Shown here: in pieces, positions 1-24,234 of the stretch
Layout: each line of letters begins with the position of its first letter
Numbering within the stretch: the stretch's first letter is position 1
DNA from: a virus
Reading direction: 5' to 3' (one strand)
DNA: 24,234 bases
Virus genome (UHGV): UHGV-0124819
The notes under the pieces: model-generated
Database searches by the model: none
Told to the model about the DNA's origin: nothing
Seen by the model: the letters and a program-made list of their open reading frames with translations, nothing else
Program-made: the position numbers and the translations under genes

Positions 1-38
1 GCTGGCGGGAGTTGAACCCGCGTCCGAAATTCCTACAT
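1..38 (-). other. ssrA: Prophage attachment-site core: 3'-terminal segment of the tmRNA gene ssrA (partial, continues off the left edge)
   Basis: Reverse complement of 1-38 is ATGTAGGAATTTCGGACGCGGGTTCAACTCCCGCCAGC, which matches from memory the tRNA-like 3' end of enterobacterial tmRNA (T-arm GGGTTCAACTCCC, acceptor GCCAGCTCCACCA). The match breaks at position 39, where AT-rich phage DNA begins, as expected for an att duplication rather than the intact gene. Confidence 0.7.
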
Positions 39-154
39 ACCATTTTGACTATAATAAAAACATATATTTATGTTTTAAAACAGTACGTTAGTGTTATTTT
101 GTTTTTGTCGGTTTTACACATTTTTAATGCTCTGCCGCCAAGTTGTCGCCATTG

Positions 155-1138
155 CTAATTCCTATCAGCAGGTAGAATTGCTGGGTAGAGCTTAGAGCAA
201 TCATTGCCATAGTCAGGGATAAAGTCCCATAGCCCTTTTGGCGTTTGGAAGACCTCAGGGCTTAAGCCAATCAGCATATAAACATGAACTAACAGCTCGC
301 GCAATCCAGTGACCATTTGCTTTATTTGTTTTTCATCAGAGAAAGAAGTGGTGAAGGGTTTTTCTTCAATGGAGTCAAAAAGAATAAACTCATGTTTTTC
401 ATATCGATAGTCGATCCCTAATTCTCTGCAAAGTTGGATAATATTGATTTCGAGCATTTGAAGGGAAATCACTTGGATATCATAAGAAGTCTCTTTGTTG
501 TAACAGCTTTTAATAGCTTTGTTGATATTCTTATAATAATCTTGAACTCTACCCATAAATAATGAACTTATTTCTTTGCTATAGCCTTCTTCAATAGAGG
601 ATTTTGTAAAAATATTCATGTAAAGAATATAAGGGTGAGAAATGGAAGGTTCTATATATTTTTTTCCATCATCGTGTTCGGTAAACTCTCTACTAACGAT
701 AAATGAAGGGACAGTTTTAAAAATATCGGCATAACTCTTCTGGTGGGCATAAAATGAATCAGATTTATTTTTTGCTTTTACCAGCTCTATTTGATGCTCT
801 GTCCTTGAAAGCTGCGTCTCTGTTTGAATGGTCCTGTGAATATTCTTAACTATAGCTCCAAGAGGTACTGAACTGGCTAGCAGCATTAGAGGGAATTTAC
901 TGATTTCGTAAAAGCGAGTATAGCCGTGGGCACTTAACACCGGGACCTTGCCCCACCATGCGAAAATCCCAAAATAAAAGAATGATAATACTGGTATTCC
1001 GATTGATAACCAGAATAATTTCTGTTTTATAAGGTTTTGTTCATTTAATAAATACCACTTGTATTTATATGTTAAATACAATATGTATATTAACATTACA
1101 ACATAGAACATAATGCCAATTGATGAATAAAGGGTCAT
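155..1138 (-). CDS. Hypothetical membrane-anchored protein: N-terminal 2-3 transmembrane helices plus a ~230-aa soluble domain; AT-rich cargo (moron) gene between int and att
   Basis: 327-aa ORF. Hydrophobic N-terminal segments IGIMFYVVMLIYILYLTY and LFWLSIGIPVLSFFYFGIFAWW, with a possible third, FPLMLLASSVPLGAIV. Start ATG at 1136-1138 overlaps the int stop codon in an ATGA arrangement. Composition is strongly AT-biased and Lys/Ile/Tyr/Asn-rich, unlike the neighbouring int. No recognisable catalytic motif. Confidence 0.65.
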   Translation of the reverse strand: MTLYSSIGIMFYVVMLIYILYLTYKYKWYLLNEQNLIKQKLFWLSIGIPVLSFFYFGIFAWWGKVPVLSAHGYTRFYEISKFPLMLLASSVPLGAIVKNIHRTIQTETQLSRTEHQIELVKAKNKSDSFYAHQKSYADIFKTVPSFIVSREFTEHDDGKKYIEPSISHPYILYMNIFTKSSIEEGYSKEISSLFMGRVQDYYKNINKAIKSCYNKETSYDIQVISLQMLEINIIQLCRELGIDYRYEKHEFILFDSIEEKPFTTSFSDEKQIKQMVTGLRELLVHVYMLIGLSPEVFQTPKGLWDFIPDYGNDCSKLYPAILPADRN

Positions 1139-2163
1139 GCTTTTTTCCAGTCTAATTTGTAAAGTGGATTTTTTGTTACAGCATCTTCCAAGTGATCAGG
1201 GGCAAAGTGAGCGTAAACCATCGTCATTTTTATATCAGCATGGCCCAGAATATCGCGCAGTACCAGTATATTTCCGCCGTTCATCATAAAATGGCTGGCG
1301 AATGTATGGCGCAGTACGTGGGTGCACTGGCCCTCTGGCAGTTCGATACCGGCTCGCTTTACTGCACGCTCAAAGGATTTTCTGCATGGGGTAAATAATC
1401 TCCCCCTGTTTTTAGGTAGTTCGTCATACAGTTCTTGAGATATTGGAACGGTTCGGTTTTTTTTACCTTTGGTCTTGGTATAAGTAATGCGATATTTTGA
1501 TAACTGATGCCCTTGCAGGTTTTCTGCTTCACTCCATCGGGCACCAGTTGCTAGGCATATTTTTGCAATCATCAACAGACTGGGACTCTGAGAATCAGCA
1601 CAGGCATCCAGTAGGCGTTTAATTTCTTCCGGGGTCAGGAATGCTAGTTCACCCTCAGCGATTTTAAATGTTGGCAGCCCGACGAGAGGATTTGGTGCTG
1701 ACCAGTGGCCTAGTTTTTTCAATGTGCCGAAAACCGATGATAGGTTACGTTGCTCAAGATTCACCGTGCGTGGTTTTACTGGCGACATTAGTGTGCCGTC
1801 TTCGTTACGAAGGTCACCTTTTAACCGTGCTTCGCGGTATTTCGTAAAGTCTCCGGCTGTCAGTTCTGAGGCGATGGGGTCGCCTAGACCATTACAGATA
1901 ATTCTAAGTTTCGCCATGAGGCGCTTGGGGTCTGCGAGTGTCTGACCATACAGGGAATACCAAAGCTCAATTAACTCTGATAGGCGTCGCCGATCATCCT
2001 TTTCACCCAACCACGGTTTTTTATTCACTTCTTCCATTGTGAAGCTTTCAAACGCAATGGCTTCGCCTTTCGTGGCAAATTGCTTACGCACGCGCTTGCC
2101 ATTGCGTCCATTGGGATAGCACTCACACAACCATTTTCCGTTCGGCTGTTTTCTGATGGTCAT
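1135..2163 (-). CDS. int: Tyrosine recombinase, P2/186-type phage integrase
   Basis: 342 aa. C-terminal catalytic signature ARWSEAE ... HVLRHTFASH ... LGHADIKMTMVYAH (R..H-x-x-R..Y). Position immediately downstream of cI and next to att. Confidence 0.95.
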   Translation of the reverse strand: MTIRKQPNGKWLCECYPNGRNGKRVRKQFATKGEAIAFESFTMEEVNKKPWLGEKDDRRRLSELIELWYSLYGQTLADPKRLMAKLRIICNGLGDPIASELTAGDFTKYREARLKGDLRNEDGTLMSPVKPRTVNLEQRNLSSVFGTLKKLGHWSAPNPLVGLPTFKIAEGELAFLTPEEIKRLLDACADSQSPSLLMIAKICLATGARWSEAENLQGHQLSKYRITYTKTKGKKNRTVPISQELYDELPKNRGRLFTPCRKSFERAVKRAGIELPEGQCTHVLRHTFASHFMMNGGNILVLRDILGHADIKMTMVYAHFAPDHLEDAVTKNPLYKLDWKKA

Positions 2164-2164
2164 A

Positions 2165-2797
2165 TCAAAGGCTCTTAATGATTTTCAGTGCGCGGCCTAC
2201 TACCTCAATGTCATCCAGGCCGCACTCAAACGATGAATCATCCTGATGCACTACTAATTTGTTTCCCGGGAGTCGAGTCAATTTAACAATGCTTTTTATC
2301 CCGTCGATATCGACTAACCACATACCATTTACTAGTGGTGTTTGGTTGCGATCTATTAAATAAGAATCACCAGAAGTAGTCACCAGCAGTAGGTTGCTTG
2401 AGTTTGAGGGGAGTATGCTGCTATCAATGATTGCTTTTCCAGCATCGATCAATAAACCACCGTTGAGAGTCGCCTTGTCAATTTCAGGAGATACTAGTTC
2501 AGAAAGAGGTATAACCTTGCTGGAGTTCACGGAATTGATATTTTTTTTGGGTTCAATGTTTGAACCTGGCTCCCCCTGTCCGGTGGTTAGCCACAGTAAA
2601 GAAACTCCTGTTTCCAAGGCGCACTGAATCACCCACTCTGCAGGAAAACTATCTCTTAAGTATCTGTTTGCCATGGTACTTTTTGATGCGCCTAAGTGAT
2701 CGCAAAGTTGCTGTCTGGACTTGAAATCATAGGCTGCCATTAGTCTATGGATAGCCTCTCTTCCCCCTGTATTCTCTCCAGCCTTTACCTGTATCAT
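2165..2797 (-). CDS. cI: CI-type immunity repressor
   Basis: 210 aa. N-terminal HTH-like segment KSTMANRYLRDSFPAEWVIQCALETGVSLLWLTTG. Sits divergent to the early operon, with its stop 1 nt from the int start, matching the 186 cI-int lysogenic operon layout. Confidence 0.8.
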   Translation of the reverse strand: MIQVKAGENTGGREAIHRLMAAYDFKSRQQLCDHLGASKSTMANRYLRDSFPAEWVIQCALETGVSLLWLTTGQGEPGSNIEPKKNINSVNSSKVIPLSELVSPEIDKATLNGGLLIDAGKAIIDSSILPSNSSNLLLVTTSGDSYLIDRNQTPLVNGMWLVDIDGIKSIVKLTRLPGNKLVVHQDDSSFECGLDDIEVVGRALKIIKSL

Positions 2798-2809
2798 TTT
2801 TTAATCCTG

Positions 2810-2861
2810 TTGACGTATCAAATATTTGATCGTAGTATCTAGATGTATCAAATATTGAATC
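2810..2861 (+). promoter_or_regulatory. Lytic promoter (pR-like) with embedded palindromic operator and a second operator-like repeat in the cI/apl switch region
   Basis: -35 TTGACG (2810-2815), 17-nt spacer, -10 TAGTAT (2833-2838). The spacer contains the perfect 14-bp palindrome ATCAAATATTTGAT (2817-2830). A near-repeat GTATCAAATATTGAATC lies at 2845-2861. Confidence 0.5.
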
Positions 2862-2916
2862 AAGTAAAACGAGATAAAACGACGTAAACCAAACCTTAAT
2901 CGGGAGATACTGCACT

Positions 2917-3159
2917 ATGAGCACTGATATTTCAATTCGTGTACCAAAAGAGATGGCTACGCCTGCAGAGTTCGCGGAATGGGAAGGTATCTCCCGCGGC
3001 TCCGTGTATCAAAAAATTCACCATGGTCAGCTTGCTAAATACATGGTCAAGAAAGAAAAAAACAAAGGCCGCGTAAGCCTGCGTTATTTAATGTACAAAA
3101 CCGATCAGGTCCGTGAATCCCTCGGTCATTCCAACTTCCGCGTCATTGTTGGTAAGTAA
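2917..3159 (+). CDS. Apl/Cox-type small HTH excisionase-regulator, first gene of the early lytic operon
   Basis: 80 aa. SD GGGAGA upstream. HTH-like segment ATPAEFAEWEGISRGSVYQKIHHGQL. Size and position are equivalent to 186 apl and P2 cox. Confidence 0.6.
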   Translation: MSTDISIRVPKEMATPAEFAEWEGISRGSVYQKIHHGQLAKYMVKKEKNKGRVSLRYLMYKTDQVRESLGHSNFRVIVGK

Positions 3160-3191
3160 GTTCAATTATGAGAACTTTCTAAGGGGGTAGC

Positions 3192-3701
3192 ATGTTTGAT
3201 TATAAGATTTCCAAACACCCGCATTTTGATGAAGCCTGTAGAGCTTTTGCACTTCGTCACAATATGGCGAAGCTGGCAGAACGTGCAGGAATGAATGTCC
3301 AGACTTTGCGAAACAAACTCAACCCAGATCAACCGCATCAGCTAAATGCGCCAGAAATCTGGCTGCTTACCGATCTGACTGAAGATTCAACGCTGATAGA
3401 TGGTTTTCTGGCACAGATTCACTGCCTGCCATGTGTACCGATTAATGAGGTAGCAAAAGAGAAACTGCCGCATTACGTCATGAGTGCAACCGCAGAGATC
3501 GGGCGTGTTGCTGCAGGTGCGGTATCTGGAGATGTAAAAACCAGTGCAGGTCGTCGTGATGCTATCAGCAGCATTAACTCTGTAACACGACTGATGGCGC
3601 TGGCTGCTGTTTCATTGCAGGCCCGTTTACAGGCTAACCCTGCGATGGTGAGTGCAGTTGATACCGTGACTGGCCTCGGTGCTTCATTCGGTTTGCTGTG
3701 A
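3192..3701 (+). CDS. cII: CII-like lysogeny establishment regulator (186 CII family)
   Basis: 169 aa, the length I recall for 186 CII. Position directly after apl. SD AAGGGGG. Assignment is by synteny and size, not by a motif. Confidence 0.7.
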   Translation: MFDYKISKHPHFDEACRAFALRHNMAKLAERAGMNVQTLRNKLNPDQPHQLNAPEIWLLTDLTEDSTLIDGFLAQIHCLPCVPINEVAKEKLPHYVMSATAEIGRVAAGAVSGDVKTSAGRRDAISSINSVTRLMALAAVSLQARLQANPAMVSAVDTVTGLGASFGLL

Positions 3702-3708
3702 GGTGCTT

Positions 3709-4005
3709 ATGCTGAAGAAAGAACCATCATTTGCATCGCTGCTGGTAAAACAAAGCCCGGCAATGCACTACGGTCACGGCTGGATCATGGGTGAGGATGG
3801 GAAACGCTGGCATCCATGTCATTCACAAGATGAATTGCTGTCTGAATTGACCACGAGGAAACGGAGAAAGTCAAAATGTATGCAGCGGAAAGTGAAGTGG
3901 TTTATCAGTTTCGTTACAGAGGGGAGAGTTATTCAGTACCTGAAGATGATTTGCTCTGTTGTTATCCGTCGTTGTCGGGCGATGGCAGTTACTTTTTCAC
4001 GCTAA
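3709..4005 (+). CDS. Hypothetical small early protein (fil/dhr-region ORF); the 3' portion overlaps the next ORF in another frame
   Basis: ATG at 3709 preceded by GAGGTG. The first ~55 codons look protein-like; the remainder overlaps 3876-4100 and looks compositionally odd (Arg/Lys/Cys-rich). Confidence 0.3.
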   Translation: MLKKEPSFASLLVKQSPAMHYGHGWIMGEDGKRWHPCHSQDELLSELTTRKRRKSKCMQRKVKWFISFVTEGRVIQYLKMICSVVIRRCRAMAVTFSR

Positions 4006-4100
4006 GGGATGGGACGTTTTTACGGGGAGAGCAGGTTAAAGAGACGATACGAAAAAATGTATCTCCTCTTGAACGTTACCGTAAGAACAAAGAACGATAG
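3876..4100 (+). CDS. Hypothetical small early protein
   Basis: 74-aa ORF with a strong SD (GGAGAAAG) 7 nt upstream of the ATG. Confidence 0.45.
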   Translation: MYAAESEVVYQFRYRGESYSVPEDDLLCCYPSLSGDGSYFFTLRDGTFLRGEQVKETIRKNVSPLERYRKNKER

Positions 4101-4122
4101 TTGCGTTTTGGGAATATGAATT

Positions 4123-4464
4123 ATGGCAATTAATGGCGCTGCAGCAACTGTTCCATTAAGCCCCGGTGAACGCCTGAATGGACTTAATCATATTGCGGAG
4201 TTAAGGGCGAAAGTTTTTGGCCTGAATATTGAGTCAGAGCTTGAGCGGTTTATTAAAGATATGCGTGATCCACGGGATATCAATAGCGAACAAAATAAAC
4301 GGGCACTGGCTGCCATATTCTTTATGGCAAAAATTCCAGCTGAACGTCACAGCATCAGCATTAATGAGCTGACCACTGACGAAAAGCGGGAGTTGATTAA
4401 AGCAATGAATCATTTTCGTGCAGTAGTGAGCTTATTCCCCAGACGACTAACCATGCCGAATTAA
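4123..4464 (+). CDS. Hypothetical early-region protein
   Basis: 113-aa ORF, co-oriented within the early operon, typical host-like codon usage. Confidence 0.6.
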   Translation: MAINGAAATVPLSPGERLNGLNHIAELRAKVFGLNIESELERFIKDMRDPRDINSEQNKRALAAIFFMAKIPAERHSISINELTTDEKRELIKAMNHFRAVVSLFPRRLTMPN

Positions 4465-4531
4465 CAAACTAATGAACTTCATGGCGTAAACACGCCGGGT
4501 ATCCCTTTACCTAAATTCAGGAGAATTGATT

Positions 4532-4765
4532 ATGCGTAATATTGAAACCCTCACGACTAAAACCGGACCGGATGATGCAGGGCTTAATATTTTACTGACA
4601 GAGGCTCGTCTGGAAGAACGCCGGGCAAGAGCTGAAGCAATGGCAGCTCGCCTTGATAGCCTTGCGTGCCATATCACATCCCGCCAGCTAAACCACGTTG
4701 AAGCGGCTGAACTGCTGCGTGTGGCAGCTGAAGCAATCCAGAACGAAGCGCAGGAGATCCACTAA
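4532..4765 (+). CDS. Hypothetical early-region protein
   Basis: ATG at 4532 preceded by AGGAG. Stop overlaps the start of the next gene by 1 nt. Confidence 0.55.
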   Translation: MRNIETLTTKTGPDDAGLNILLTEARLEERRARAEAMAARLDSLACHITSRQLNHVEAAELLRVAAEAIQNEAQEIH

Positions 4766-4992
4766 TGGCTGATGCAATGGATCTCGTACAGCAGCGCGTT
4801 GAAGAAGAACGCCAGCGTCATATCCGTACTGCCCGTGCCAAAACGCCGGGCGTGTCCCGCGTGCTTTGCATTGAGTGTGAAGCGCCAATTCCGCCAGCAC
4901 GCCGCCGTGCCATTCCGGGTGTGCAGCTTTGCATTACCTGTCAGGAAATCGCAGGGCTGAAAGGCAAACATTACAACGGAGGTGCTGTATGA
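4765..4992 (+). CDS. TraR/DksA-family C4 zinc-finger protein
   Basis: 75 aa. Cys pairs CIECEAP ... CITCQE form a C4 finger. Common in P2-like early operons. Confidence 0.8.
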   Translation: MADAMDLVQQRVEEERQRHIRTARAKTPGVSRVLCIECEAPIPPARRRAIPGVQLCITCQEIAGLKGKHYNGGAV

Positions 4993-5846
4993 GCACCATC
5001 CTGAAATGGGCGGGAAATAAAACCGCCATTATGTCCGAACTGAAAAAGCATCTTCCTGCTGGCCCGCGACTGGTTGAACCTTTCGCGGGTTCCTGTGCAG
5101 TGATGATGGAGACGGAGTACCCCAGCTATCTTGTTGCGGATATTAATCCTGATTTAATCAACCTCTATAAAAAGGTTGCTGCTGATTGTGAATCATTTAT
5201 ATCTCGCGCCAGAGTTTTATTTGAGATCGCAAACAGGGAGGTAGCTTATTACAACATAAGGCAGGAGTTTAATTACTCAACTGAAATTACTGATTTCATG
5301 AAAGCGGTATATTTCCTGTATCTCAATCGTCACGGTTACCGTGGTTTATGTCGCTATAACAAGAGCGGGCATTTCAACATTCCCTACGGTAATTATAAAA
5401 ATCCGTATTTCCCTGAAAAAGAAATTCGCGCATTTGCAGAAAAAGCCCAGCGAGCAACGTTTATCTGCGCCAGCTTTGATGAAACGCTGGCGATGTTGAA
5501 GGCGGGGGATGTGGTGTATTGCGATCCGCCGTATGACGGTACGTTTTCCGGCTATCACACTGATGGTTTCACTGAAGATGACCAGTATCACCTGGCATCC
5601 GTTCTTGAACATCGGTCATCAGAAGGACATCCGGTCATTGTTTCTAACAGTGACACATCCCTGATCCGTTCGCTGTATCGCAATTTTACTCACCACTATA
5701 TCAAGGTAAAACGCAGCATCGGTGTGGCAGCTGGCGAGGGTAAATCAGCAACAGAAATCATTGCTGTTTCCGGGCCGCGCTGCTGGTTGGGATTTGATTA
5801 TTCGCGTGGCGTGGATAGTTCTGCCGTGTACGGAGTGCGTGCATGA
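4989..5846 (+). CDS. dam: DNA N6-adenine methyltransferase (Dam-like)
   Basis: Start ATG at 4989 overlaps the TraR stop (ATGA). Motifs KWAGNK, SAM-binding EPFAGSCAV, and catalytic DPPY (CDPPYDG). Confidence 0.9.
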
Positions 5847-8257
5847 GCCATGCTGATATGAACAACTGCAGCGGCTTTAACGAGGCCGCCGCAGCATTCT
5901 CATGGAACAGCCCGAAAAAGGCTATTAACCCTTATCTGGACCCGGCGGAAGTTGCGCCGGTTTCTGCGCTTTCAAACCTGATCACTCTGTACGCTGCCGA
6001 TAACGAGCAGGAACAACTGCGCCGCGAGGCACTGAGTGATCAGGTCTGGGAGCGTTATTTCTTTAATGAATCCCGTGATCCTGTCCAACGCGAAATGGAG
6101 CAGGATAAGCTCATTAGCCGGGCAAAGCTGGCGCATGAGCAGCAGCGTTTTAATCCGGACATGGTCATACTGGCGGACGTTAAAGCCCAGCCCTCCCATA
6201 TCAGCAAGCCGCTGATGCAACGTATTGAATACTTCAGCAGCCTGGGCAGGCCAAAGGCTTATTCCCGCTATTTGCGTGAGACGATTAAGCCATGTCTGGA
6301 ACGACTGGAGCATGTACGCGACAGTCAGCTATCCACTTCTTTTCGCTTTATGGCAAGCCATGAAGGGCTGGACGGCCTGCTGATCCTGCCTGAAATGAGT
6401 CAGGATCAGGTGAAACGCCTGTCTACTCTTGTCGCTGCGCATATGAGCATGTGTCTTGATGCCGCTTGTGGTGATTTGTACGCCACCGATGATGTTAAGC
6501 CAGAAGAAATCCGCAAGACATGGGAAAAGGTGGCAGCAGAAACCCTGCGACTGGATGTCATACCGCCTGCGTTTGAGCAACTCCGCCGGAAAAGAAACCG
6601 CCGTAAACCCGTACCCTATGAACTCATTCCGGGTTCGCTGGCGCGTATGTTGTGCGCCGACTGGTGGTATCGGAAATTATGGAAGATGCGTTGCGAATGG
6701 CGGGAAGAGCAGTTGCGTGCTGTTTGCCTGGTCAGCAAAAAAGCATCTCCCTATGTCAGCTATGAAGCCGTGATGCATAAACGTGAGCAGCGCCGTAAGT
6801 CGCTGGAGTTTTTCCGTTCTCATGAACTGGTGAACGAAGACGGCGACACGCTGGATATGGAGGACGTGGTAAACGCCAGTAGTAGCAACCCGGCGCATCG
6901 CCGCAATGAGATGATGGCATGTGTTAAAGGTCTGGAGCTTATCGCGGAAATGCGCGGTGACTGCGCCGTTTTCTACACCATCACCTGTCCGTCACGTTTC
7001 CATTCCACGCTAAATAACGGCAGGCCCAACCCAACCTGGACAAATGCGACGGTAAGACAAAGCAGTGATTATCTGGTCGGCATGTTTGCTGCATTTCGTA
7101 AGGCGATGTACAAAGCCGGATTGCGCTGGTATGGCGTGCGGGTGGCTGAGCCGCATCATGACGGTACAGTTCACTGGCACCTGTTGTGTTTTATGCGCAA
7201 AAAAGATCGCCGCGCCATTACTGCTTTGTTGCGTAAGTTTGCCATCCGTGAAGACCGCGAGGAGCTGGGTAATAACACAGGACCACGCTTTAAGTCTGAG
7301 CTGATAAACCCGCGCAAAGGTACGCCAACAAGCTACATCGCGAAATACATCAGTAAGAACATTGACGGGCGTGGTCTGGCTGGCGAGATCAGCAAGGAAA
7401 CGGGTAAATCCCTGCGTGATAACGCTGAATACGTTAATGCCTGGGCGTCTCTTCATCGTGTTCAGCAATTCCGCTTCTTTGGCATTCCGGGGCGTCAGGC
7501 TTACCGTGAACTGCGATTGCTGGCTGGTCAGGCGGCAAGGCAACAGGGGGACAAAAAAGCAGGTGCGGCGGTACTGGATAACCCACGCCTTGATGCCATC
7601 CTGGCTGCTGCTGATGCTGGTTGTTTTGCCACCTACATCATGAAGCAGGGCGGCGTACTGGTTCCCCGCAAATATCACCTCATCAGAACCGCTTATGAAA
7701 TCAACGAAGAGCCGACCGCCTATGGCGATCACGGCATTCGTATTTATGGCATCTGGTCACCCATTGCAGAGGGCAAGATCTGCACTCATGCAGTGAAGTG
7801 GAAAATGGTTCGTAAGGCCGTTGACGTTCAGGAGGCGGCAGCCGACCAGGGCGCTTGCGCCCCTTGGACTCGTGGCAATAACTGTCCCCTTGCTGAAAAT
7901 TTGAACCAACAGGAGAAAGATAAATCAGCTGATGGGGACCCCAGAACGGACATTACCCGCATGGATGACAAGGTGTTGCACGATTACCTGCACAGTATGA
8001 ACAAAAAGGAGCGCCGGGAATTGGCTGCAAGGTTACGTCTGGTGAAACCGAAACGGCGTAGAGACTACAAACAGCGAATTACAGACCATCAACGACAGCA
8101 GCTCGTCTATGAACTGAAATCCAGAGGATTTGATGGCAGCGAGAAAGAGGTCGATTTACTCCTTCGCGGCGGCAGTATTCCGTCAGGAGCAGGCCTGCGT
8201 ATCTTCTATCGGAACCAGCGTTTGCAGGAAGATGATAAGTGGCGGAACCTGTATTAA
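5843..8257 (+). CDS. A: Rolling-circle replication initiation endonuclease (P2 gpA family)
   Basis: 804 aa. HUH-type motif VHWHLLCF and tandem catalytic tyrosines YIAKYISKN. Start overlaps the dam stop (ATGA). Confidence 0.9.
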
Positions 8258-8349
8258 TTACGCTGGTTAACAATTCGTGCTCTTAATAATACCAGGCATA
8301 TCAGGCTGATAAGCGTAAATAAACGTTTTACATCAGTAAGATTATTATA

Positions 8350-8369
8350 TACTGTAAATATAAACAGTG
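8350..8369 (+). promoter_or_regulatory. LexA operator (SOS box) overlapping a candidate promoter for the tum-like/DinI-like genes
   Basis: TACTGTAAATATAAACAGTG has the CTGT-N8-ACAG core (CTGT 8352-8355, ACAG 8364-8367) and is close to the consensus TACTGTATATATATACAGTA. -35-like TTTACA at 8327-8332. Confidence 0.7.
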
Positions 8370-8410
8370 GTTATACATACAGTATTGCGTGTGGTGTCAT
8401 AGGAGGAAAG

Positions 8411-8599
8411 ATGCAGGACTATTTTTTGGAGTCTTTGAAGCTCCAGCGCATTGATTTTTTTCTTAAGCTTGTAGCGGCTAGTGAGTGTAGTGATGAAGAG
8501 AAGGGGCTGGCTCTGCAGTGGGTTTCTGAATTGACTGATGAACTCATGGCAAAAATCAGAAGCCACGAATACAACCGCTCAATGGATGTCATCAACTGA
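8411..8599 (+). CDS. Hypothetical small protein in the position of the 186 tum (SOS-inducible antirepressor) region
   Basis: 62-aa ORF, ATG at 8411 with SD AGGAGG at 8401-8406. Lies directly downstream of the LexA box. Confidence 0.5.
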   Translation: MQDYFLESLKLQRIDFFLKLVAASECSDEEKGLALQWVSELTDELMAKIRSHEYNRSMDVIN

Positions 8600-8609
8600 G
8601 GTGACTTTT

Positions 8610-8843
8610 ATGTGCATTGAAATAATGATCGATAAAGAGCAGAAGATTAGCCAGTCTACCCTGGACGCCCTTGAATCCGAGCTTTACCGCAATCTGCGCC
8701 CCCTGTATCCCAAAACGGTAATCCGTATCCGTAAAGGTAGCTCTAACGGTGTGGAACTGACCGGACTGCAACTGGACGAAGAAAGAAAACAAGTGATGAA
8801 AATTATGCAGAAGGTGTGGGAAGACGACAGCTGGCTGCATTGA
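8610..8843 (+). CDS. DinI-family protein (DNA-damage-inducible protein I-like)
   Basis: 77 aa, MCIEIMIDKEQ...LDALESEL...QKVWEDDSWLH. Aligns by eye over its full length with E. coli DinI (MRIEVTIAK...IDALAGEL...QETWESADDW). SD GAGGTG upstream. Confidence 0.8.
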   Translation: MCIEIMIDKEQKISQSTLDALESELYRNLRPLYPKTVIRIRKGSSNGVELTGLQLDEERKQVMKIMQKVWEDDSWLH

Positions 8844-8897
8844 TTTTGTCAATAGACGCTTGTTTTTACTAATCAAAAAGGGTTACATATGAGTGAG

Positions 8898-8931
8898 AGG
8901 CGATGTCAATCAGATATCGCCTTGTTTTTTG
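8898..8931 (+). terminator. Intrinsic terminator after the DinI-like gene
   Basis: Stem AGGCGAT / ATCGCCT (8898-8904 / 8916-8922) followed by TGTTTTTTG. Confidence 0.55.
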
Positions 8932-8956
8932 TCAAGAAAAGAATAATAGGCTAAAA

Positions 8957-9634
8957 ATGAAAATTAATAACGTAGCGTTACCAATATCTCTTGCTGTAAT
9001 CCTAACTGGTTGCGTGCCACATGCTTCTAACCGAAATATCACTGCTATTGAAGTGGTGAAGCCTGCTATTGGGCAAAGTGCTACCGCCTACATGGGCGAT
9101 CCCATTATCACATCTGCTACTGGATTTAAAACGGACGTACTAGAACTTGGTGCGGCTAATGGTGCATTGTCTTCTATCGCTGCTGGTACATATTGCAGTG
9201 AGGGGAATGGAATTTACCGCAATTATCATAACCCTCAAGCTGTTGCGTTAAAAAATCTCTATGGGCAAATCGGTAACTATGTTGATTATGTTAGTTACGA
9301 TGCTGCAAAAAATGAGATATCACCGCCAAATGGTACTTCTTATACTGCATCAGAAATTTCTATCAAACGTGTTCCTGATGGGCTGTGTCGAGTTAGTAAC
9401 TCATTGGTTAAGACTATCGAATACAATGGAAATGCAGGCGGTGTAATGAAGTTCACCTATCGTGAATTTGCAAACGATATGGCTCGTGCAGCATTTACAA
9501 CAGATTTTTCTGTAGATTCTAAGGGAAGTGACGTTATCGCTTACAAAGGTGCCAAGTTCAAAGTGAACAAGGCTGATAACTCGTCTATTTCTTATACAAT
9601 TATTTCTGGCTTTGACAAGGCTGTCACGTTCTAG
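8957..9634 (+). CDS. Lipoprotein of unknown function (moron)
   Basis: Signal peptide MKINNVALPISLAVILTGC with lipobox LTGC. 225-aa Gly/Ser/Thr/Asn-rich mature part. AT-biased. Bracketed by terminators at 8898-8931 and 9739-9765. Confidence 0.75.
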   Translation: MKINNVALPISLAVILTGCVPHASNRNITAIEVVKPAIGQSATAYMGDPIITSATGFKTDVLELGAANGALSSIAAGTYCSEGNGIYRNYHNPQAVALKNLYGQIGNYVDYVSYDAAKNEISPPNGTSYTASEISIKRVPDGLCRVSNSLVKTIEYNGNAGGVMKFTYREFANDMARAAFTTDFSVDSKGSDVIAYKGAKFKVNKADNSSISYTIISGFDKAVTF

Positions 9635-9738
9635 GTTTCACGCTTGCTGAGTATGTTACGATTTTGCACATTCTGCATAAACGCGCATGTCTATGCTGCA
9701 TGAGATCGCATGATCGTTTGAGGATCTTTTGTGTTAAG

Positions 9739-9765
9739 GCCCGCCAGTTCTGGCGGGCTTTTGCG
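9739..9765 (+). terminator. Intrinsic terminator
   Basis: Perfect 8-bp stem GCCCGCCA / TGGCGGGC (9739-9746 / 9751-9758), loop GTTC, then TTTTGCG. Confidence 0.7.
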
Positions 9766-9807
9766 TAGATCATGCAGGTGCATGAAAACCACTACATAAA
9801 GCGGGCA

Positions 9808-9826
9808 GGCGTGGCGGGGATACGAG
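9808..9826. other. Candidate cos site (19-nt cohesive-end region)
   Basis: GGCGTGGCGGGGATACGAG begins with GGCGTGGCGGGGA, matching the first 13 nt of the 186-type cohesive end as I recall it (GGCGTGGCGGGGAAAGCAT). GC-rich element in a non-coding gap between the replication and portal gene blocks. Confidence 0.45.
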
Positions 9827-9973
9827 CGCGCGCAAGGTATAGAAACAGTCGTTTGTTTACAAACAGATACTATGATTTTCAATGTTCTTTCAAATTGTTG
9901 CTTTAAGATAGCAGGTAGATGTTTGTAGTTGTTGCGTGAACTGATAAGCTTCTACAACTATCGAGGAAAGGAT

Positions 9974-11041
9974 ATGAAGCGGCTAACTGAAGAACAAATT
10001 GAACATTCTTTGATCAGAGCAAGGAAGATTGCGAAGCGGGAGTCAAGAAAGCTTTCTGGTGGAAGACGGATGCTACAGCCCATGCGGGTATTCTCTCGTG
10101 TGAGAATACCCGCGCCTGCGTCATTGGACTTATTTAATACTAAAAATTACAAACTATTTATAGAGTTTATCACTTTAATAAGAGATTACATCAATGATGG
10201 TGAGAAAATTTTAATAGATTTCAGAAATACAAAATCTCTGAAAGCATGTGCAGTAATCGTATTGTATGCACATATTGACTTTTTACAAAGGCAAACAAAA
10301 GATAAAAATATAATTTCTATTACTACGTGCGGTTCATCCAGGGCAAATAACTGGTTTAAAATATGTGGTATTTGGGGGATTACAGGGTTTCAGCGTATAG
10401 CTGCAGATAAGCTTAATTCAATGGAAATTGTTTCCGCTGTTGCAGGCAAAACTAGAGATGATCATGAAAGTGCCGAAGCAAGACAAAAAATTAAAAATAT
10501 TCTACGTTATATAAAAGATACCATTTATGAAGGTAAGATTTCCGCTTCGGATGGTGTGAAATTATATGCAGCCTTAACTGAATCTATTAGCAATGTTGGT
10601 CTACATGCGTATTCAAATGAAGAACAGTTCTCTGAATTTATTGAGGACATTGGTAAAAGATGGTGGATATTGGCACACAAAGTCGAAGAACAACTATTTT
10701 TGATGGTGTATGATATGGGAGAAGGTATCCCAGTTACATTGGTTAAAAAAGACTTTTTCACATTTATCGCTCAGATATTTAATCCTAAGACGGATTCTGA
10801 TAAAATATTCGCGGCTGTACAGTATGGTGAGACAAGAATGAATAGTCAGAAGCATGGTAAAGGATTACCTGATATGAAAAGGTATGTTGTAGATAACCCT
10901 GAGGGGCAGTTACATATTTTTAGTGGAATGGGACGATATTCTTATGATGCTGAAAATAATGTTGAAGATAAATTTGATCTGCCATACTCCATAGGTGGAA
11001 CCCTTATTCAATGGAATGTAAGTTTGAGAGGTGCTGAATGA
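9974..11041 (+). CDS. Cassette gene 1: protein with a C-terminal GHKL-superfamily ATPase/kinase domain (RsbW/SpoIIAB-like) and an N-terminal domain of unknown function
   Basis: 355 aa from ATG 9974 (SD GAGGAAAGG). N-box-like LTESISNVGLHAY (10580-10612; compare SpoIIAB SEAVTNAIIHGY), G1-box-like YDMGEGIP (10709-10732), G2-like HGKGLPD (10853-10873). AT-rich. Confidence 0.6.
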   Translation: MKRLTEEQIEHSLIRARKIAKRESRKLSGGRRMLQPMRVFSRVRIPAPASLDLFNTKNYKLFIEFITLIRDYINDGEKILIDFRNTKSLKACAVIVLYAHIDFLQRQTKDKNIISITTCGSSRANNWFKICGIWGITGFQRIAADKLNSMEIVSAVAGKTRDDHESAEARQKIKNILRYIKDTIYEGKISASDGVKLYAALTESISNVGLHAYSNEEQFSEFIEDIGKRWWILAHKVEEQLFLMVYDMGEGIPVTLVKKDFFTFIAQIFNPKTDSDKIFAAVQYGETRMNSQKHGKGLPDMKRYVVDNPEGQLHIFSGMGRYSYDAENNVEDKFDLPYSIGGTLIQWNVSLRGAE

Positions 11042-11358
11042 AAATCAAAGAGATACATGTTGCTGAAGATTTTTCAGATGTTCCCTATGGCCGCTATGAT
11101 GAGGATGGTCCTGATAATGGACAACGTTTCCGTGAAAAGTATCTTTTGAAAGCCATCCAAGATTATGATGAGGTGCACGTGTACCTTGATGGTGCTATGG
11201 GTTATGGTTCTTCATTCTTGGAAGAGGCGTTTGGTGGACTTTATAGAACAAATAATATAGATAAAGCTATAATTAGGAAAAAATTAAAAATATTTACTGA
11301 TTTGGATTTCCTCAAGGATAGTATATGGGGATATATTTCTGATGCTAAAAAGGAGTGA
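11038..11358 (+). CDS. Cassette gene 2: small acidic protein, possibly STAS-like (anti-sigma-factor-antagonist-like, DUF4325-type)
   Basis: 106 aa. ATG overlaps the gene 1 stop (ATGA at 11038-11041). Segment VHVYLDGAMGYGSSFLEEAFGG (around 11200-11235) resembles the SpoIIAA/RsbV pattern h-h-D-x-S/G-x-h-x-h-DSSGLG. Confidence 0.5.
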   Translation: MKIKEIHVAEDFSDVPYGRYDEDGPDNGQRFREKYLLKAIQDYDEVHVYLDGAMGYGSSFLEEAFGGLYRTNNIDKAIIRKKLKIFTDLDFLKDSIWGYISDAKKE

Positions 11359-11363
11359 TGTTC

Positions 11364-11852
11364 ATGGATGAACTTCCGGTTTATCTGCGGTTATTACAAT
11401 ACCTTGCTAGTTCAGGTGTGATTGCAATTCTAACAGCCTTGATTGGTTGGGTTTTTGTTTATAGAAACTCCCGTGCGTTGCAAAAGAGGAGTGAAACATG
11501 GTCAATTGTAAAAAATGTTTCAGATAATTTAAAGGAAATTGAATCTGCATCAAGAAAGTTTTGGATACCGGGAGATTCAAAAGAAATTGATGCAATGTCA
11601 TTTCAAAATGAGATAACAGCACTTCTTGCGGAGACCGAGCGGTGGTTGAATCATCTAAAACAACGCATTAATATCGAAGGTGACTATAAACCTTTGATTG
11701 CTGATTTATTCAAAGATGCTACATCTAATATTGAAAAAGCACAGGAGTATGATAAAAGTCAAAGGACAAGAATTAGTGTATTAGTGTCAAAAAGGGCGAA
11801 AATAATTAAATCTCTAATTGATGAGTCTTATCAGAAAAAATTCTTAAAGTGA
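11364..11852 (+). CDS. Cassette gene 3: single-pass membrane protein with a C-terminal coiled-coil-like region
   Basis: Likely ATG at 11364, 9 nt after SD AAGGAG and 5 nt after the gene 2 stop. TM helix VIAILTALIGWVFVY, then a charged heptad-like Lys/Glu-rich region. AT-rich. Confidence 0.6.
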   Translation: MDELPVYLRLLQYLASSGVIAILTALIGWVFVYRNSRALQKRSETWSIVKNVSDNLKEIESASRKFWIPGDSKEIDAMSFQNEITALLAETERWLNHLKQRINIEGDYKPLIADLFKDATSNIEKAQEYDKSQRTRISVLVSKRAKIIKSLIDESYQKKFLK

Positions 11853-23175: not shown

Positions 23176-24234
23176 GCACAAAATTTTATACCCTGCTGAC
23201 GGATATTGGCGCGGCGAAACTTGCCAGCGCCGCCGCGCTCGGTGTGCCTTTAAAAATTACCCATATGGCGGTCGGCGATGGCGGCGGAACATTGCCAACG
23301 CCGGACGCAAAGCAGACAGCATTAGTAAATGAGAAACGCCGGGCTGCGTTGAATATGCTCTATATCGACCCGCAGAACAGCAGCCAGATTATTGCTGAAC
23401 AGGTGATCCCTGAAAACGAGGGCGGTTGGTGGATACGTGAAGTGGGCCTGTTTGATGAGTCCGGGGCATTGATTGCCGTGGGCAACTGCCCGGAAAGCTA
23501 TAAGCCGCAACTGGCTGAAGGCAGCGGGCGCACCCAGACCGTGCGCATGGTGCTGATTACCAGCAGCACGGACAATATCACCCTGAAAATCGACCCTGCC
23601 GTCGTGCTGGCAACCCGCAAGTATGTGGATGACAAGGTACTGGAGCTGAAGGTGTTCGTGGATGATAAGATGGCAAAACATCTTGCCGCACCGGACCCGC
23701 ATTCACAGTATGCACAGAAAGAAAGTCCTACGTTTACCGGAACCCCCAAAGCGCCAACGCCAGCGGCGGGGAATAATACCACTCAGCTTGCGACCACCGC
23801 ATTTGTTCAGGCGGCACTGACGGCCCTGATTAATGGTGCGCCAGCCACGCTGGACACGCTGAAAGAAATAGCCGCAGCCATTAACAATGACCCGAAATTC
23901 AGTACCACCATTAACAATGCGCTGGCACTGAAAGCGCCGCTGTCGAGTCCGGCACTCACCGGAACGCCAACAGCCCCCACGGCGGCGCAGTCGGTCAACA
24001 ATACACAGATTGCCACTACGGCTTTTGTGAAATCGGCGATTGCGGCAATGGTGGGTTCTGCACCTGCGGCACTGGATACACTGAACGAACTGGCGGCGGC
24101 ACTGGGGAATGATCCGAACTTTGCCACGACAATGCTTAATGCGCTGGCAGGTAAACAACCGCTGGACAATACGCTGACTAATTTGAGTGGAAAGGATGTA
24201 GCTGGTCTTCTCACATACCTTGGTTTGGGAGAAG
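23172..24234 (+). CDS. H: Tail fibre protein H, N-terminal part (ORF continues past the end of the window)
   Basis: ATG at 23172 overlaps the I stop (ATGA). Open frame to the window end. N-terminus MSTKFYTLLTDIGAAKLA...MAVGDGGG and the later TGTPTAPTA...NTQIATTAFV...LDTLNELAAALGNDPNFATTM match P2 gpH as I recall it. Not listed in the ORF track because it has no stop in the window. Confidence 0.85.
   Translation, partial: MSTKFYTLLTDIGAAKLASAAALGVPLKITHMAVGDGGGTLPTPDAKQTALVNEKRRAALNMLYIDPQNSSQIIAEQVIPENEGGWWIREVGLFDESGALIAVGNCPESYKPQLAEGSGRTQTVRMVLITSSTDNITLKIDPAVVLATRKYVDDKVLELKVFVDDKMAKHLAAPDPHSQYAQKESPTFTGTPKAPTPAAGNNTTQLATTAFVQAALTALINGAPATLDTLKEIAAAINNDPKFSTTINNALALKAPLSSPALTGTPTAPTAAQSVNNTQIATTAFVKSAIAAMVGSAPAALDTLNELAAALGNDPNFATTMLNALAGKQPLDNTLTNLSGKDVAGLLTYLGLGE

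What the first reader, a model, noticed from the sequence alone, without database searches (positions are those of the whole stretch)
1..154. Window opens inside a prophage att site derived from the 3' end of ssrA (tmRNA)
The reverse complement of bases 1-38 reads as the tRNA-like 3' end of tmRNA, and identity stops at position 39 where AT-rich phage DNA starts. That is the signature of integration into ssrA, as Fels-2-type and CP4-57-type elements do. It fixes the prophage boundary and orientation: int and its cargo gene are att-proximal.
Basis: partly seen in the sequence, partly recalled or inferred. Interest (0 to 1): 0.35.

Follow-up and report, generated by a model that had tools for sequence, protein, structure and literature searches.

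The report
Fels-2-type prophage junction at ssrA
The window starts inside the leftover, non-functional copy of the last 45 bases of the tmRNA gene (ssrA) that a Fels-2-like phage leaves at its integrase end when it inserts into that gene, which is a well-documented and ordinary arrangement.

Summary
Confirmed, and ordinary. The reverse complement of window 1-38 matches the ssrA 3' end 38/38. Identity breaks at base 39, where 23% G+C phage DNA begins. A near-identical E. coli prophage (strain SCU-106) carries a 46-nt direct repeat at both ends, 32.2 kb apart. The window holds its inner 38 nt; the other 8 nt lie left of base 1. The far copy is the 3' end of an intact ssrA next to ogr, outside the window. 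The window copy is therefore the displaced, non-functional fragment at the integrase end.

Metagenome contigs capture the joined attP. An E. coli genome without this prophage shows the unoccupied ssrA site.

The integrase is 92.4% identical to Fels-2 Int, and window 15-152 aligns with the attP annotated in the Fels-2 record. Bases 39-154 are the int-side attP arm. It carries two tandem 186-type arm repeats (133-143 and 144-154) and a conserved IHF-like site (78-90).

The CP4-57 comparison is loose. That element uses a P4-type integrase, and such an island lies just beyond the window's left edge in related contigs.

One open point: two near-identical contigs carry a 3-nt acceptor-stem deletion in this fragment. 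With that deletion, excision could inactivate tmRNA.

The parts
1..38 (-). Inner 38 nt of the 45-46-nt att core. It equals the ssrA 3' end (part of the helix-2 3' strand, the T-arm and the start of the acceptor 3' strand). This is the displaced duplicate; the last 7-8 nt (TCCACCA[A]) lie left of the window.
   Evidence: 38/38 to ssrA. 46-nt direct repeat at both ends of the SCU-106 prophage. Structural mapping from the Rfam alignment of the intact gene. No tmRNA gene called in the window.
39..45 (+). ACCATTT: phage-specific bases next to the core. Invariant in eight Fels-2-type att arms but absent from ssrA, so they mark the limit of phage/host identity.
   Evidence: Alignment A1; comparison with ssrA.
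78..90 (+). IHF-like site AAACAGTACGTTA, with one mismatch to WATCARNNNNTTR. The consensus positions A78, C81, A82, T88, T89 and A90 are invariant across the family. Inferred bending site of the attP arm.
   Evidence: The motif alone is weak: 54 hits in the window against 36 expected. Conservation is the main support.
133..143 (+). Arm-type Int-binding repeat 1, TGCCGCCAAGT (186-type consensus tgccGCCActt).
   Evidence: consensus from PMC3448106.
144..154 (+). Arm-type Int-binding repeat 2, TGTCGCCATTG, in tandem with repeat 1 at 11-bp spacing. It ends at the stop codon of the accessory gene.
   Evidence: A matching pair in the same orientation lies on the other attP arm (L004 4745-4763).
155..1138 (-). 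Accessory ('cargo') gene in the int-att slot. 327 aa, membrane-anchored, function unknown (phrog_17460). Its start overlaps the int stop (ATGA).
   Evidence: No match in Pfam, PADLOC, NCBIfam or by fold against the PDB.
1135..2163 (-). Tyrosine integrase of the P2/186/HP1 type, 342 aa.
   Evidence: Pfam Int_N plus Phage_integrase. 92.4% identical to Fels-2 Int and 90.6% to SopEPhi Int. The catalytic domain aligns end to end with HP1 integrase 1AIH, E = 1e-68.
2165..2797 (-). 186-type CI repressor, immediately upstream of int on the same strand (2-nt gap).
   Evidence: Pfam Phage_CI_repr plus Phage_CI_C; RefSeq annotation of the SCU-106 copy.
2917..3159 (+). 80-aa divergent first early gene at the position of apl/cox, the candidate excision directionality factor. 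Assigned by position only.
   Evidence: Gene order. No Pfam hit. Annotated 'Rha family transcriptional regulator' in RefSeq. The role is inferred from the 186/P2 paradigm (PMC3448106).

Best explanation
Window 1-154 is the integrase-proximal junction of a Fels-2-type P2-like prophage inserted in the 3' end of the E. coli tmRNA gene ssrA. The phage attP carries a 45-46-bp copy of the ssrA 3' end between two arms, and each arm holds a tandem pair of 186-type Int arm-binding repeats. Int, a P2/186/HP1-type tyrosine recombinase, is inferred to act with host IHF bound at an arm site. It would exchange strands inside the shared core between attP and the ssrA 3' end. The result has two ends. The ssrA body is re-joined to the phage-borne copy of its 3' end plus a phage-borne terminator at the ogr end, so the gene stays intact. 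The original host 3' end is pushed about 32 kb away, where it now abuts the int-side arm. That displaced, non-functional fragment is window 1-38, and 39-154 is the int-side attP arm. Shown here: the duplicated core, the intact regenerated gene, the joined attP, the empty attB, and the family relationship of Int and the arm. Inferred: the binding roles of the repeats and the IHF-like site, the position of strand exchange, and the role of the 80-aa Apl/Cox-position protein in excision.
For: Core match of 38/38 with a break at base 39.

In E. coli SCU-106, 99.6% identical over window 1-8841, a 46-nt direct repeat lies at L002 962-1007 and 33170-33215. The second copy is the 3' end of an intact tmRNA gene (ARAGORN; Rfam 295.8 bits). 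That gene is flanked by smpB and followed by a 12-bp-stem terminator on phage DNA.

All genes between the two copies are P2-like phage genes.

The joined attP (accessory gene, arm, 46-nt core, arm, 160-aa gene, gpD) is found in three metagenome contigs 99.96-100% identical to the window.

The site unoccupied by this phage is seen in E. coli 503025, where ssrA is followed directly by the flank seen in L003 and WGI31CT.

Int is 92.4% identical to Fels-2 Int. Window 15-152 is 81% identical to the Fels-2 region that includes the annotated 'prophage attP'.

The two repeats TGCCGCCAAGT and TGTCGCCATTG match the published 186-type arm consensus tgccGCCActt (PMC3448106). They are invariant in eight family members and mirrored on the other arm.

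Fels-2 and SopEPhi are reported to integrate in ssrA (PMC3448106; PMC10107115 Table 1).
Against: The window contains only one copy of the core and its own left flank is not given. The far junction is therefore shown in near-identical relatives, not in the source genome.

No complete E. coli genome holds the whole window; the best covers 88%.

No binding or recombination data exist for this phage. The IHF motif alone is barely above chance, and TGYCGCCA occurs 7 times in the window against 2.6 expected.

The same 1-154 sequence also occurs in joined attP contigs. A free or circular form cannot be excluded from the window alone.
Confidence: 0.93

Rival explanations
1. The window comes from an excised or circular phage genome, or from a tandem lysogen. 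Bases 1-38 would then be the core of an intact attP joined to the ogr-side arm, not a host-prophage junction.
For: Contigs L004, L006 and L007 carry this joined attP and are 99.96-100% identical to the window over 3.1-4.7 kb. The bases left of window position 1 are unknown.
Against: A packaged P2-like genome is expected to be linear from cos, inferred from P2 biology to lie near the portal gene (about window 11.9 kb), not from att. A record that starts at att therefore suggests prophage coordinates. The only contig matching the window through its distinctive 9-11 kb cargo (L003, 1 mismatch in 11,138) is a host junction. Either way the core is the ssrA-derived att site, so only the word 'junction' would change.
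Confidence: 0.1
2. Bases 1-38 are the 3' end of the working ssrA gene itself, so the window opens in the functional tmRNA gene at the gene-proximal junction.
For: The sequence is identical to the functional 3' end. cmscan gives a sub-threshold tmRNA alignment.
Against: In ssrA sense the fragment's 5' side is window 39 onward. That is a 23% G+C phage arm followed by a phage gene, not the ssrA body. ARAGORN and Rfam gathering find no tmRNA gene. The apparent 5' pairing is a spurious stretch, at 21.7 bits against a gathering score of 47. In SCU-106 the intact gene is at the opposite (ogr) end.
Confidence: 0.01
3. The ssrA fragment belongs to the neighbouring CP4-57-like island (P4-type integrase) as that island's gene-proximal junction, and only abuts the P2-like prophage by accident.
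For: In L003, L008, L011 and L035 the fragment is followed within about 165 nt by a 409-aa P4-type integrase. In E. coli 503025, which lacks the P2-like prophage, the same sequence is the real ssrA 3' end in front of that integrase.
Against: This is a complement rather than a rival. In tandem arrays one fragment serves both as the distal junction of the Fels-2-type prophage and as the former proximal junction of the island. The same arm and core also occur next to a different flank with no P4-type integrase (ypjA side: SCU-106 and L034) and in attP. The association with the Fels-2-type arm is therefore the constant one.
Confidence: 0.03

Closest known systems
Fels-2 prophage of Salmonella Typhimurium LT2 (Felsduovirus Fels2, NC_010463), integrated in ssrA
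   Same: Int is 92.4% identical. The att arm aligns at 81% over window 15-152, reaching the 24-nt feature annotated in that record as part of attP. Both have the same ssrA 3'-end core, two TG(C/T)CGCCA arm repeats, a 186-type CI next to int, and a P2-like structural module.
   Different: The host here is E. coli. Fels-2 has no gene between the arm and int, since int ends a few bases from the arm. Here a 327-aa gene occupies that slot. The cargo between the replication gene and the portal gene also differs.
SopEPhi (Salmonella Typhimurium DT204; AY319521), integrated in ssrA
   Same: Int is 90.6% identical and the arm 82%. It also carries an accessory ORF (orfY, 403 aa) between the arm and int, with its start overlapping the int stop.
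   Different: orfY is unrelated to the 327-aa protein here (BLASTP E = 0.04).
Coliphage 186 attP
   Same: [quoted passage not shown] Same CI / CII / Fil / DUF2732 early-region layout.
   Different: 186 targets the tRNA-Ile genes ileY and ileX, not ssrA (PMC3448106). Among the phage records searched, PSP3-type integrases were about 60% identical to this Int.
CP4-57 of E. coli K-12 and other P4-type-integrase islands at ssrA
   Same: Same target gene and the same logic of a regenerated gene plus a displaced fragment. Such an island lies directly beyond the window's left edge in related contigs.
   Different: A different integrase family: about 400 aa with Arm-DNA-bind_3, Phage_int_M and Phage_integrase domains, sitting just downstream of ssrA and transcribed away from it. 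CP4-57 excision leaves ssrA lacking T357 (PMC10107115).

Membership tests
Fels-2 / SopEPhi-type P2-like prophage integrated at ssrA | P2/186/HP1-type tyrosine integrase closely related to Fels-2 Int | tested here: met
   Pfam Int_N plus Phage_integrase. 92.4% aa identity to Fels-2 Int and 90.6% to SopEPhi Int over 99-100% of the length. The catalytic domain aligns with HP1 Int 1AIH, E = 1e-68.
Fels-2 / SopEPhi-type P2-like prophage integrated at ssrA | att core identical to the 3' end of ssrA | tested here: met
   38/38 in the window. 45-46 nt in full-length copies.
Fels-2 / SopEPhi-type P2-like prophage integrated at ssrA | Core duplicated at both prophage ends, with an intact regenerated ssrA at one end | tested here: met
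   Met in the near-identical SCU-106 prophage: 46-nt repeat 32,208 bp apart and an intact tmRNA gene. Not testable in the window itself, which holds one copy and ends in the tail genes.
Fels-2 / SopEPhi-type P2-like prophage integrated at ssrA | 186-type arm-binding direct repeats (tgccGCCActt) flanking the core in attP | tested here: met
   Window 133-143 and 144-154. A second pair lies on the other arm of attP in L004. Invariant in eight family members. Consensus from PMC3448106. Protein binding was not tested.
Fels-2 / SopEPhi-type P2-like prophage integrated at ssrA | P2-like structural and replication gene set (gpA, Q, P, O, N, M, L, tail genes) | tested here: met
   ORF layout. RefSeq annotation of the co-linear SCU-106 prophage. 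Pfam families on matching contigs.
CP4-57-type (P4-type integrase) ssrA island | P4-type integrase (Arm-DNA-bind_3 / Phage_int_M / Phage_integrase, about 400 aa) directly downstream of ssrA | tested here: not met
   The window's integrase is 342 aa with an Int_N domain. A P4-type integrase occurs only beyond the left edge, in L003, L010, L011 and L035.
Functional tmRNA (ssrA) gene | Complete tmRNA with 5' acceptor strand, tag reading frame, pseudoknots and 3' tRNA-like end | tested here: not met
   ARAGORN finds 0 genes. Rfam gathering finds 0. Only the 3' T-arm and acceptor end align.

The most novel reading that the evidence does not exclude
In the window's source genome the displaced ssrA fragment may lack three acceptor-stem bases (CCAGC[TCC]ACCA), as it does in the two host-junction contigs that match the window best (L003 and L008). 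The exact attL/attR repeat would then be precisely window 1-38, which would explain why the window starts at that base. Strand exchange must lie inside that 38-bp block. Excision of this Fels-2-type prophage would therefore hand ssrA a 3' end without the G3:U70 alanine identity pair and inactivate tmRNA. That would make the prophage either hard to lose or an excision-triggered switch of ribosome rescue. This is known for CP4-57 but is not reported for Fels-2 or SopEPhi, which are listed as leaving ssrA intact.
Probability: 0.3. Interest if true: 0.35.

Novelty: already known. Interest (0 to 1): 0.12.

Why it matters
The result fixes one end and the orientation of a roughly 32-kb Fels-2-type prophage. 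It shows that everything from base 39 rightward is phage DNA, including the 327-aa gene between the arm and int, which is therefore mobilised with the phage. It also identifies the ssrA fragment as a pseudo-copy that should not be annotated as a tmRNA gene.

None of this changes current understanding. Integration of Fels-2 and SopEPhi into ssrA, the regenerated-gene-plus-displaced-fragment signature, tandem arrays at ssrA and the int-att cargo slot of P2-like phages are all described in the literature.

The only point with some further value is the 3-nt acceptor-stem deletion seen in two near-identical contigs. It would couple prophage excision to loss of tmRNA function.

Tried and rejected
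An exact scan of the species-representative genome collection with a 49-nt junction pattern found nothing.

An exact scan of JGI metagenome contigs with the deletion-junction pattern found nothing.

No complete E. coli genome carries the 3-nt-deleted junction. The best match (WGI31CT) has the full core.

I tried to reach the far end of the L003 contig through a window tail protein. That protein is present in more than 14,000 index blocks, and the contig was not among those returned.

The SopEPhi paper PMC181011 is not held. Its finding is cited through PMC3448106 and PMC10107115.

Promoter and terminator scans of window 1-3200 were at chance level.

The accessory protein has no match in Pfam, PADLOC, NCBIfam or PDB folds. 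It is unrelated to the proteins in the same slot in SopEPhi and Cartapus.

Chance resemblance and 'functional tmRNA gene' were both considered and rejected.

Full report
**Observation.** The reverse complement of window 1-38 reads ATGTAGGAATTTCGGACGCGGGTTCAACTCCCGCCAGC.
- It is identical, 38/38, to the 3' part of the E. coli tmRNA gene as annotated and verified in strain SCU-106 (L002 33178-33215).
- All 5,426 complete E. coli genomes matched the 1-3000 query, most of them apparently through this 38-mer alone.
- The 38-mer occurs once in the window, against zero expected in shuffles.
- Identity to ssrA ends at base 39: the window continues ACCATT where ssrA continues CCTCGG.
- G+C drops from 58% (1-38) to 23% (39-132).
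- ARAGORN and Rfam at gathering thresholds find no tmRNA gene in the window. A permissive cmscan aligns only the T-arm and acceptor end.

The one correction is that the shared core is 45-46 nt in full-length examples. The window begins 7-8 nt inside it.

**What it is.**
- *Near-identical prophages.* Window 1-3000 is 99.6-99.9% identical to prophages in seven complete E. coli genomes.
- *Both junctions in SCU-106.* A 46-nt direct repeat (TTGGTGGAGCTGG...CCTACAT) lies at L002 962-1007 and 33170-33215, 32,208 bp apart. Window base 1 corresponds to L002 970.
- *The far copy.* It is the 3' end of an intact tmRNA gene (ARAGORN, tag ANDENYALAA; Rfam 295.8 bits). smpB lies beyond it and ogr and gpD lie inside.
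- *The content between the copies.* It is a complete P2-like gene set.
- *Consequence.* In ssrA sense, the window copy has phage DNA on its 5' side. It is therefore the displaced, non-functional duplicate at the integrase end, not part of the working gene.
- *Phage-borne terminator.* On the regenerated side the phage also supplies a terminator with a 12-bp stem just after CCA.

**Independent confirmation of the att logic.**
- *Joined attP.* Contigs that encode exactly the 327-aa protein of window 155-1138 include three (L004, L006, L007) with the order accessory gene, arm, 46-nt core, second arm, 160-aa gene, gpD. This is the joined attP of an excised or circular phage.
- *Site unoccupied by this phage.* E. 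coli 503025 has ssrA followed directly by the flank that follows the displaced fragment in L003 and in strain WGI31CT.
- *Different outer flanks.* The same arm and core also occur against a different outer flank, the ypjA side, in SCU-106 and in IMG/VR contig L034. That is expected for a mobile element that always uses the ssrA 3' end.

**Family.**
- The integrase (1135-2163, minus strand) has Int_N and Phage_integrase domains.
- It is 92.4% identical to Fels-2 Int and 90.6% to SopEPhi Int.
- Its catalytic domain aligns end to end with HP1 integrase 1AIH.
- Window 15-152 is 81% identical to the Fels-2 region that includes the feature annotated 'part of prophage attP'.
- Fels-2 and SopEPhi are reported to integrate into ssrA (PMC3448106; PMC10107115 Table 1).
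- 'Fels-2-type' therefore passes every membership test I could run.
- 'CP4-57-type' does not. That class uses a P4-type integrase of about 400 aa, placed just downstream of ssrA.

**Anatomy of 39-154.** An alignment of eight family arms shows four conserved features.
- The core.
- Seven further invariant bases, ACCATTT (39-45), which are not in ssrA.
- An IHF-like element at 78-90 (AAACAGTACGTTA, one mismatch to WATCARNNNNTTR), whose consensus positions are invariant.
- Two tandem 11-bp repeats at 133-143 (TGCCGCCAAGT) and 144-154 (TGTCGCCATTG).

The repeats match the published 186-type arm-binding consensus tgccGCCActt (PMC3448106). A second pair in the same orientation lies on the other attP arm. 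Binding by Int and IHF is inferred, not shown.

**Mechanism.** Shown:
- the core is duplicated at both ends;
- the regenerated ssrA is intact;
- attP and attB both exist;
- Int and the arm belong to the Fels-2 / 186 lineage.

Inferred from the P2/186 paradigm:
- Int dimers bridge the arm and core sites of attP;
- IHF bends the arm;
- strand exchange occurs within the identity block;
- the Apl/Cox-position protein (80 aa, 2917-3159) directs excision.

**Context beyond the left edge.**
- In L003 (one mismatch to window 1-11138, and the only contig sharing the window's 9-11 kb cargo) and in L008, the fragment is followed by a terminator-like hairpin and a 409-aa P4-type integrase.
- This is a tandem array, in which one ssrA fragment is both the distal junction of the Fels-2-type prophage and the former proximal junction of a CP4-57-like island.
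- 58 complete E. coli genomes cover at least 80% of a query spanning the arm, the core and that flank.
- In a Klebsiella contig the neighbour is a P4-like satellite.

**An open point.**
- In L003 and L008 the fragment reads CCAGC-ACCAC, a 3-nt deletion (TCC) relative to CCAGCTCCACCAC in WGI31CT and 503025.
- The deletion removes the U of the G3:U70 pair.
- Displaced ssrA fragments with acceptor-stem deletions are known for CP4-57 and other elements, where excision inactivates tmRNA (PMC10107115). Fels-2 and SopEPhi are listed there as leaving the gene intact.
- With the deletion, the exact attL/attR repeat would be exactly window 1-38. That coincides with the window's first base.
- I could not test this for the window. 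No complete E. coli genome and no JGI metagenome contig has the deleted junction.

**Accessory gene.**
- The 327-aa protein (155-1138) has a start that overlaps the int stop (ATGA).
- It has two to three N-terminal hydrophobic helices followed by a helix of about 70 residues.
- Its N-terminal half is conserved (including NIHRTIQTE) and its C-terminal half is variable.
- Homologues were found only in Enterobacterales (64 clusters). In the two homologues examined, the gene sits in the same slot of Fels-2-like prophages.
- It has no match in Pfam, PADLOC, NCBIfam or PDB folds.
- Unrelated genes fill the slot in SopEPhi, RE2010 and Cartapus, and Fels-2 and SEN8 have none.
- The int-att interval of P2-like phages was recently described as a minor defence hotspot (PMC13586616).

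**Verdict.** The finding is correct and ordinary: a known kind of att junction from a known phage lineage at a known target.

Noticed in passing
L003 11139-11145 and L008 (just left of window base 1 in the best-matching contigs): The displaced ssrA fragment has a 3-nt deletion (CCAGC[TCC]ACCAC) that removes part of the acceptor stem. The complete genome WGI31CT, with the same arm and flank, has the full sequence. With the deletion, the exact attL/attR repeat is exactly window 1-38.
   Followed up: partly
window 155-1138 (-): A 327-aa membrane-anchored protein of unknown function (phrog_17460) whose start overlaps the int stop. Its N-terminal half is conserved and its C-terminal half variable. 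It was found only in Enterobacterales, and in the same int-att slot in the two homologues examined. It has no family or fold match. The slot holds unrelated genes in SopEPhi and Cartapus and is empty in Fels-2 and SEN8.
   Followed up: partly
window 8903-11852 (+): Low-G+C cargo in the known gpA-gpQ hotspot of P2-like phages. It comprises a 243-aa protein (phrog_1353), a 370-aa protein with a weak HATPase_c match, a 106-aa DUF4325 (STAS-like) protein and a 165-aa protein. The kinase-like plus STAS-like pair recalls an anti-sigma / anti-anti-sigma partner switch (my recollection, not tested). There are no PADLOC hits. SCU-106 carries different genes there, including a HIRAN-domain protein.
   Followed up: partly
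L003 11308-12537, L010 1670-2899, L035 1871-3100, L018 6406-11101 (beyond the window's left edge): Tandem arrays at ssrA. The Fels-2-type prophage is followed by a P4-type-integrase island with two-component-system genes in E. coli. In a Klebsiella contig it is followed by a P4-like satellite (P4-type Int, Psu, Delta), so a possible helper phage and a satellite sit side by side at one locus.
   Followed up: partly
L002 33135-33162 (-), outside the window: The phage's ogr-side arm supplies a strong intrinsic terminator (12-bp stem plus T run) immediately after the regenerated ssrA CCA end. It takes the place of the host sequence that follows ssrA at an unoccupied site.
   Followed up: yes
L002 32565-33047 (-) and L004 4820-5302, outside the window: A 160-aa gene sits between ogr and the att arm on the other side of attP. 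It has a weak, sub-threshold BRCT match and is annotated 'putative exonuclease' in phage Cartapus. It looks like a second att-adjacent accessory gene.
   Followed up: no
window 23630-24234: Similarity to the closest E. coli prophages ends at about 23,630, at the start of the tail-fibre gene. Related loci carry an invertible tail-fibre segment with a resolvase/invertase gene nearby.
   Followed up: no
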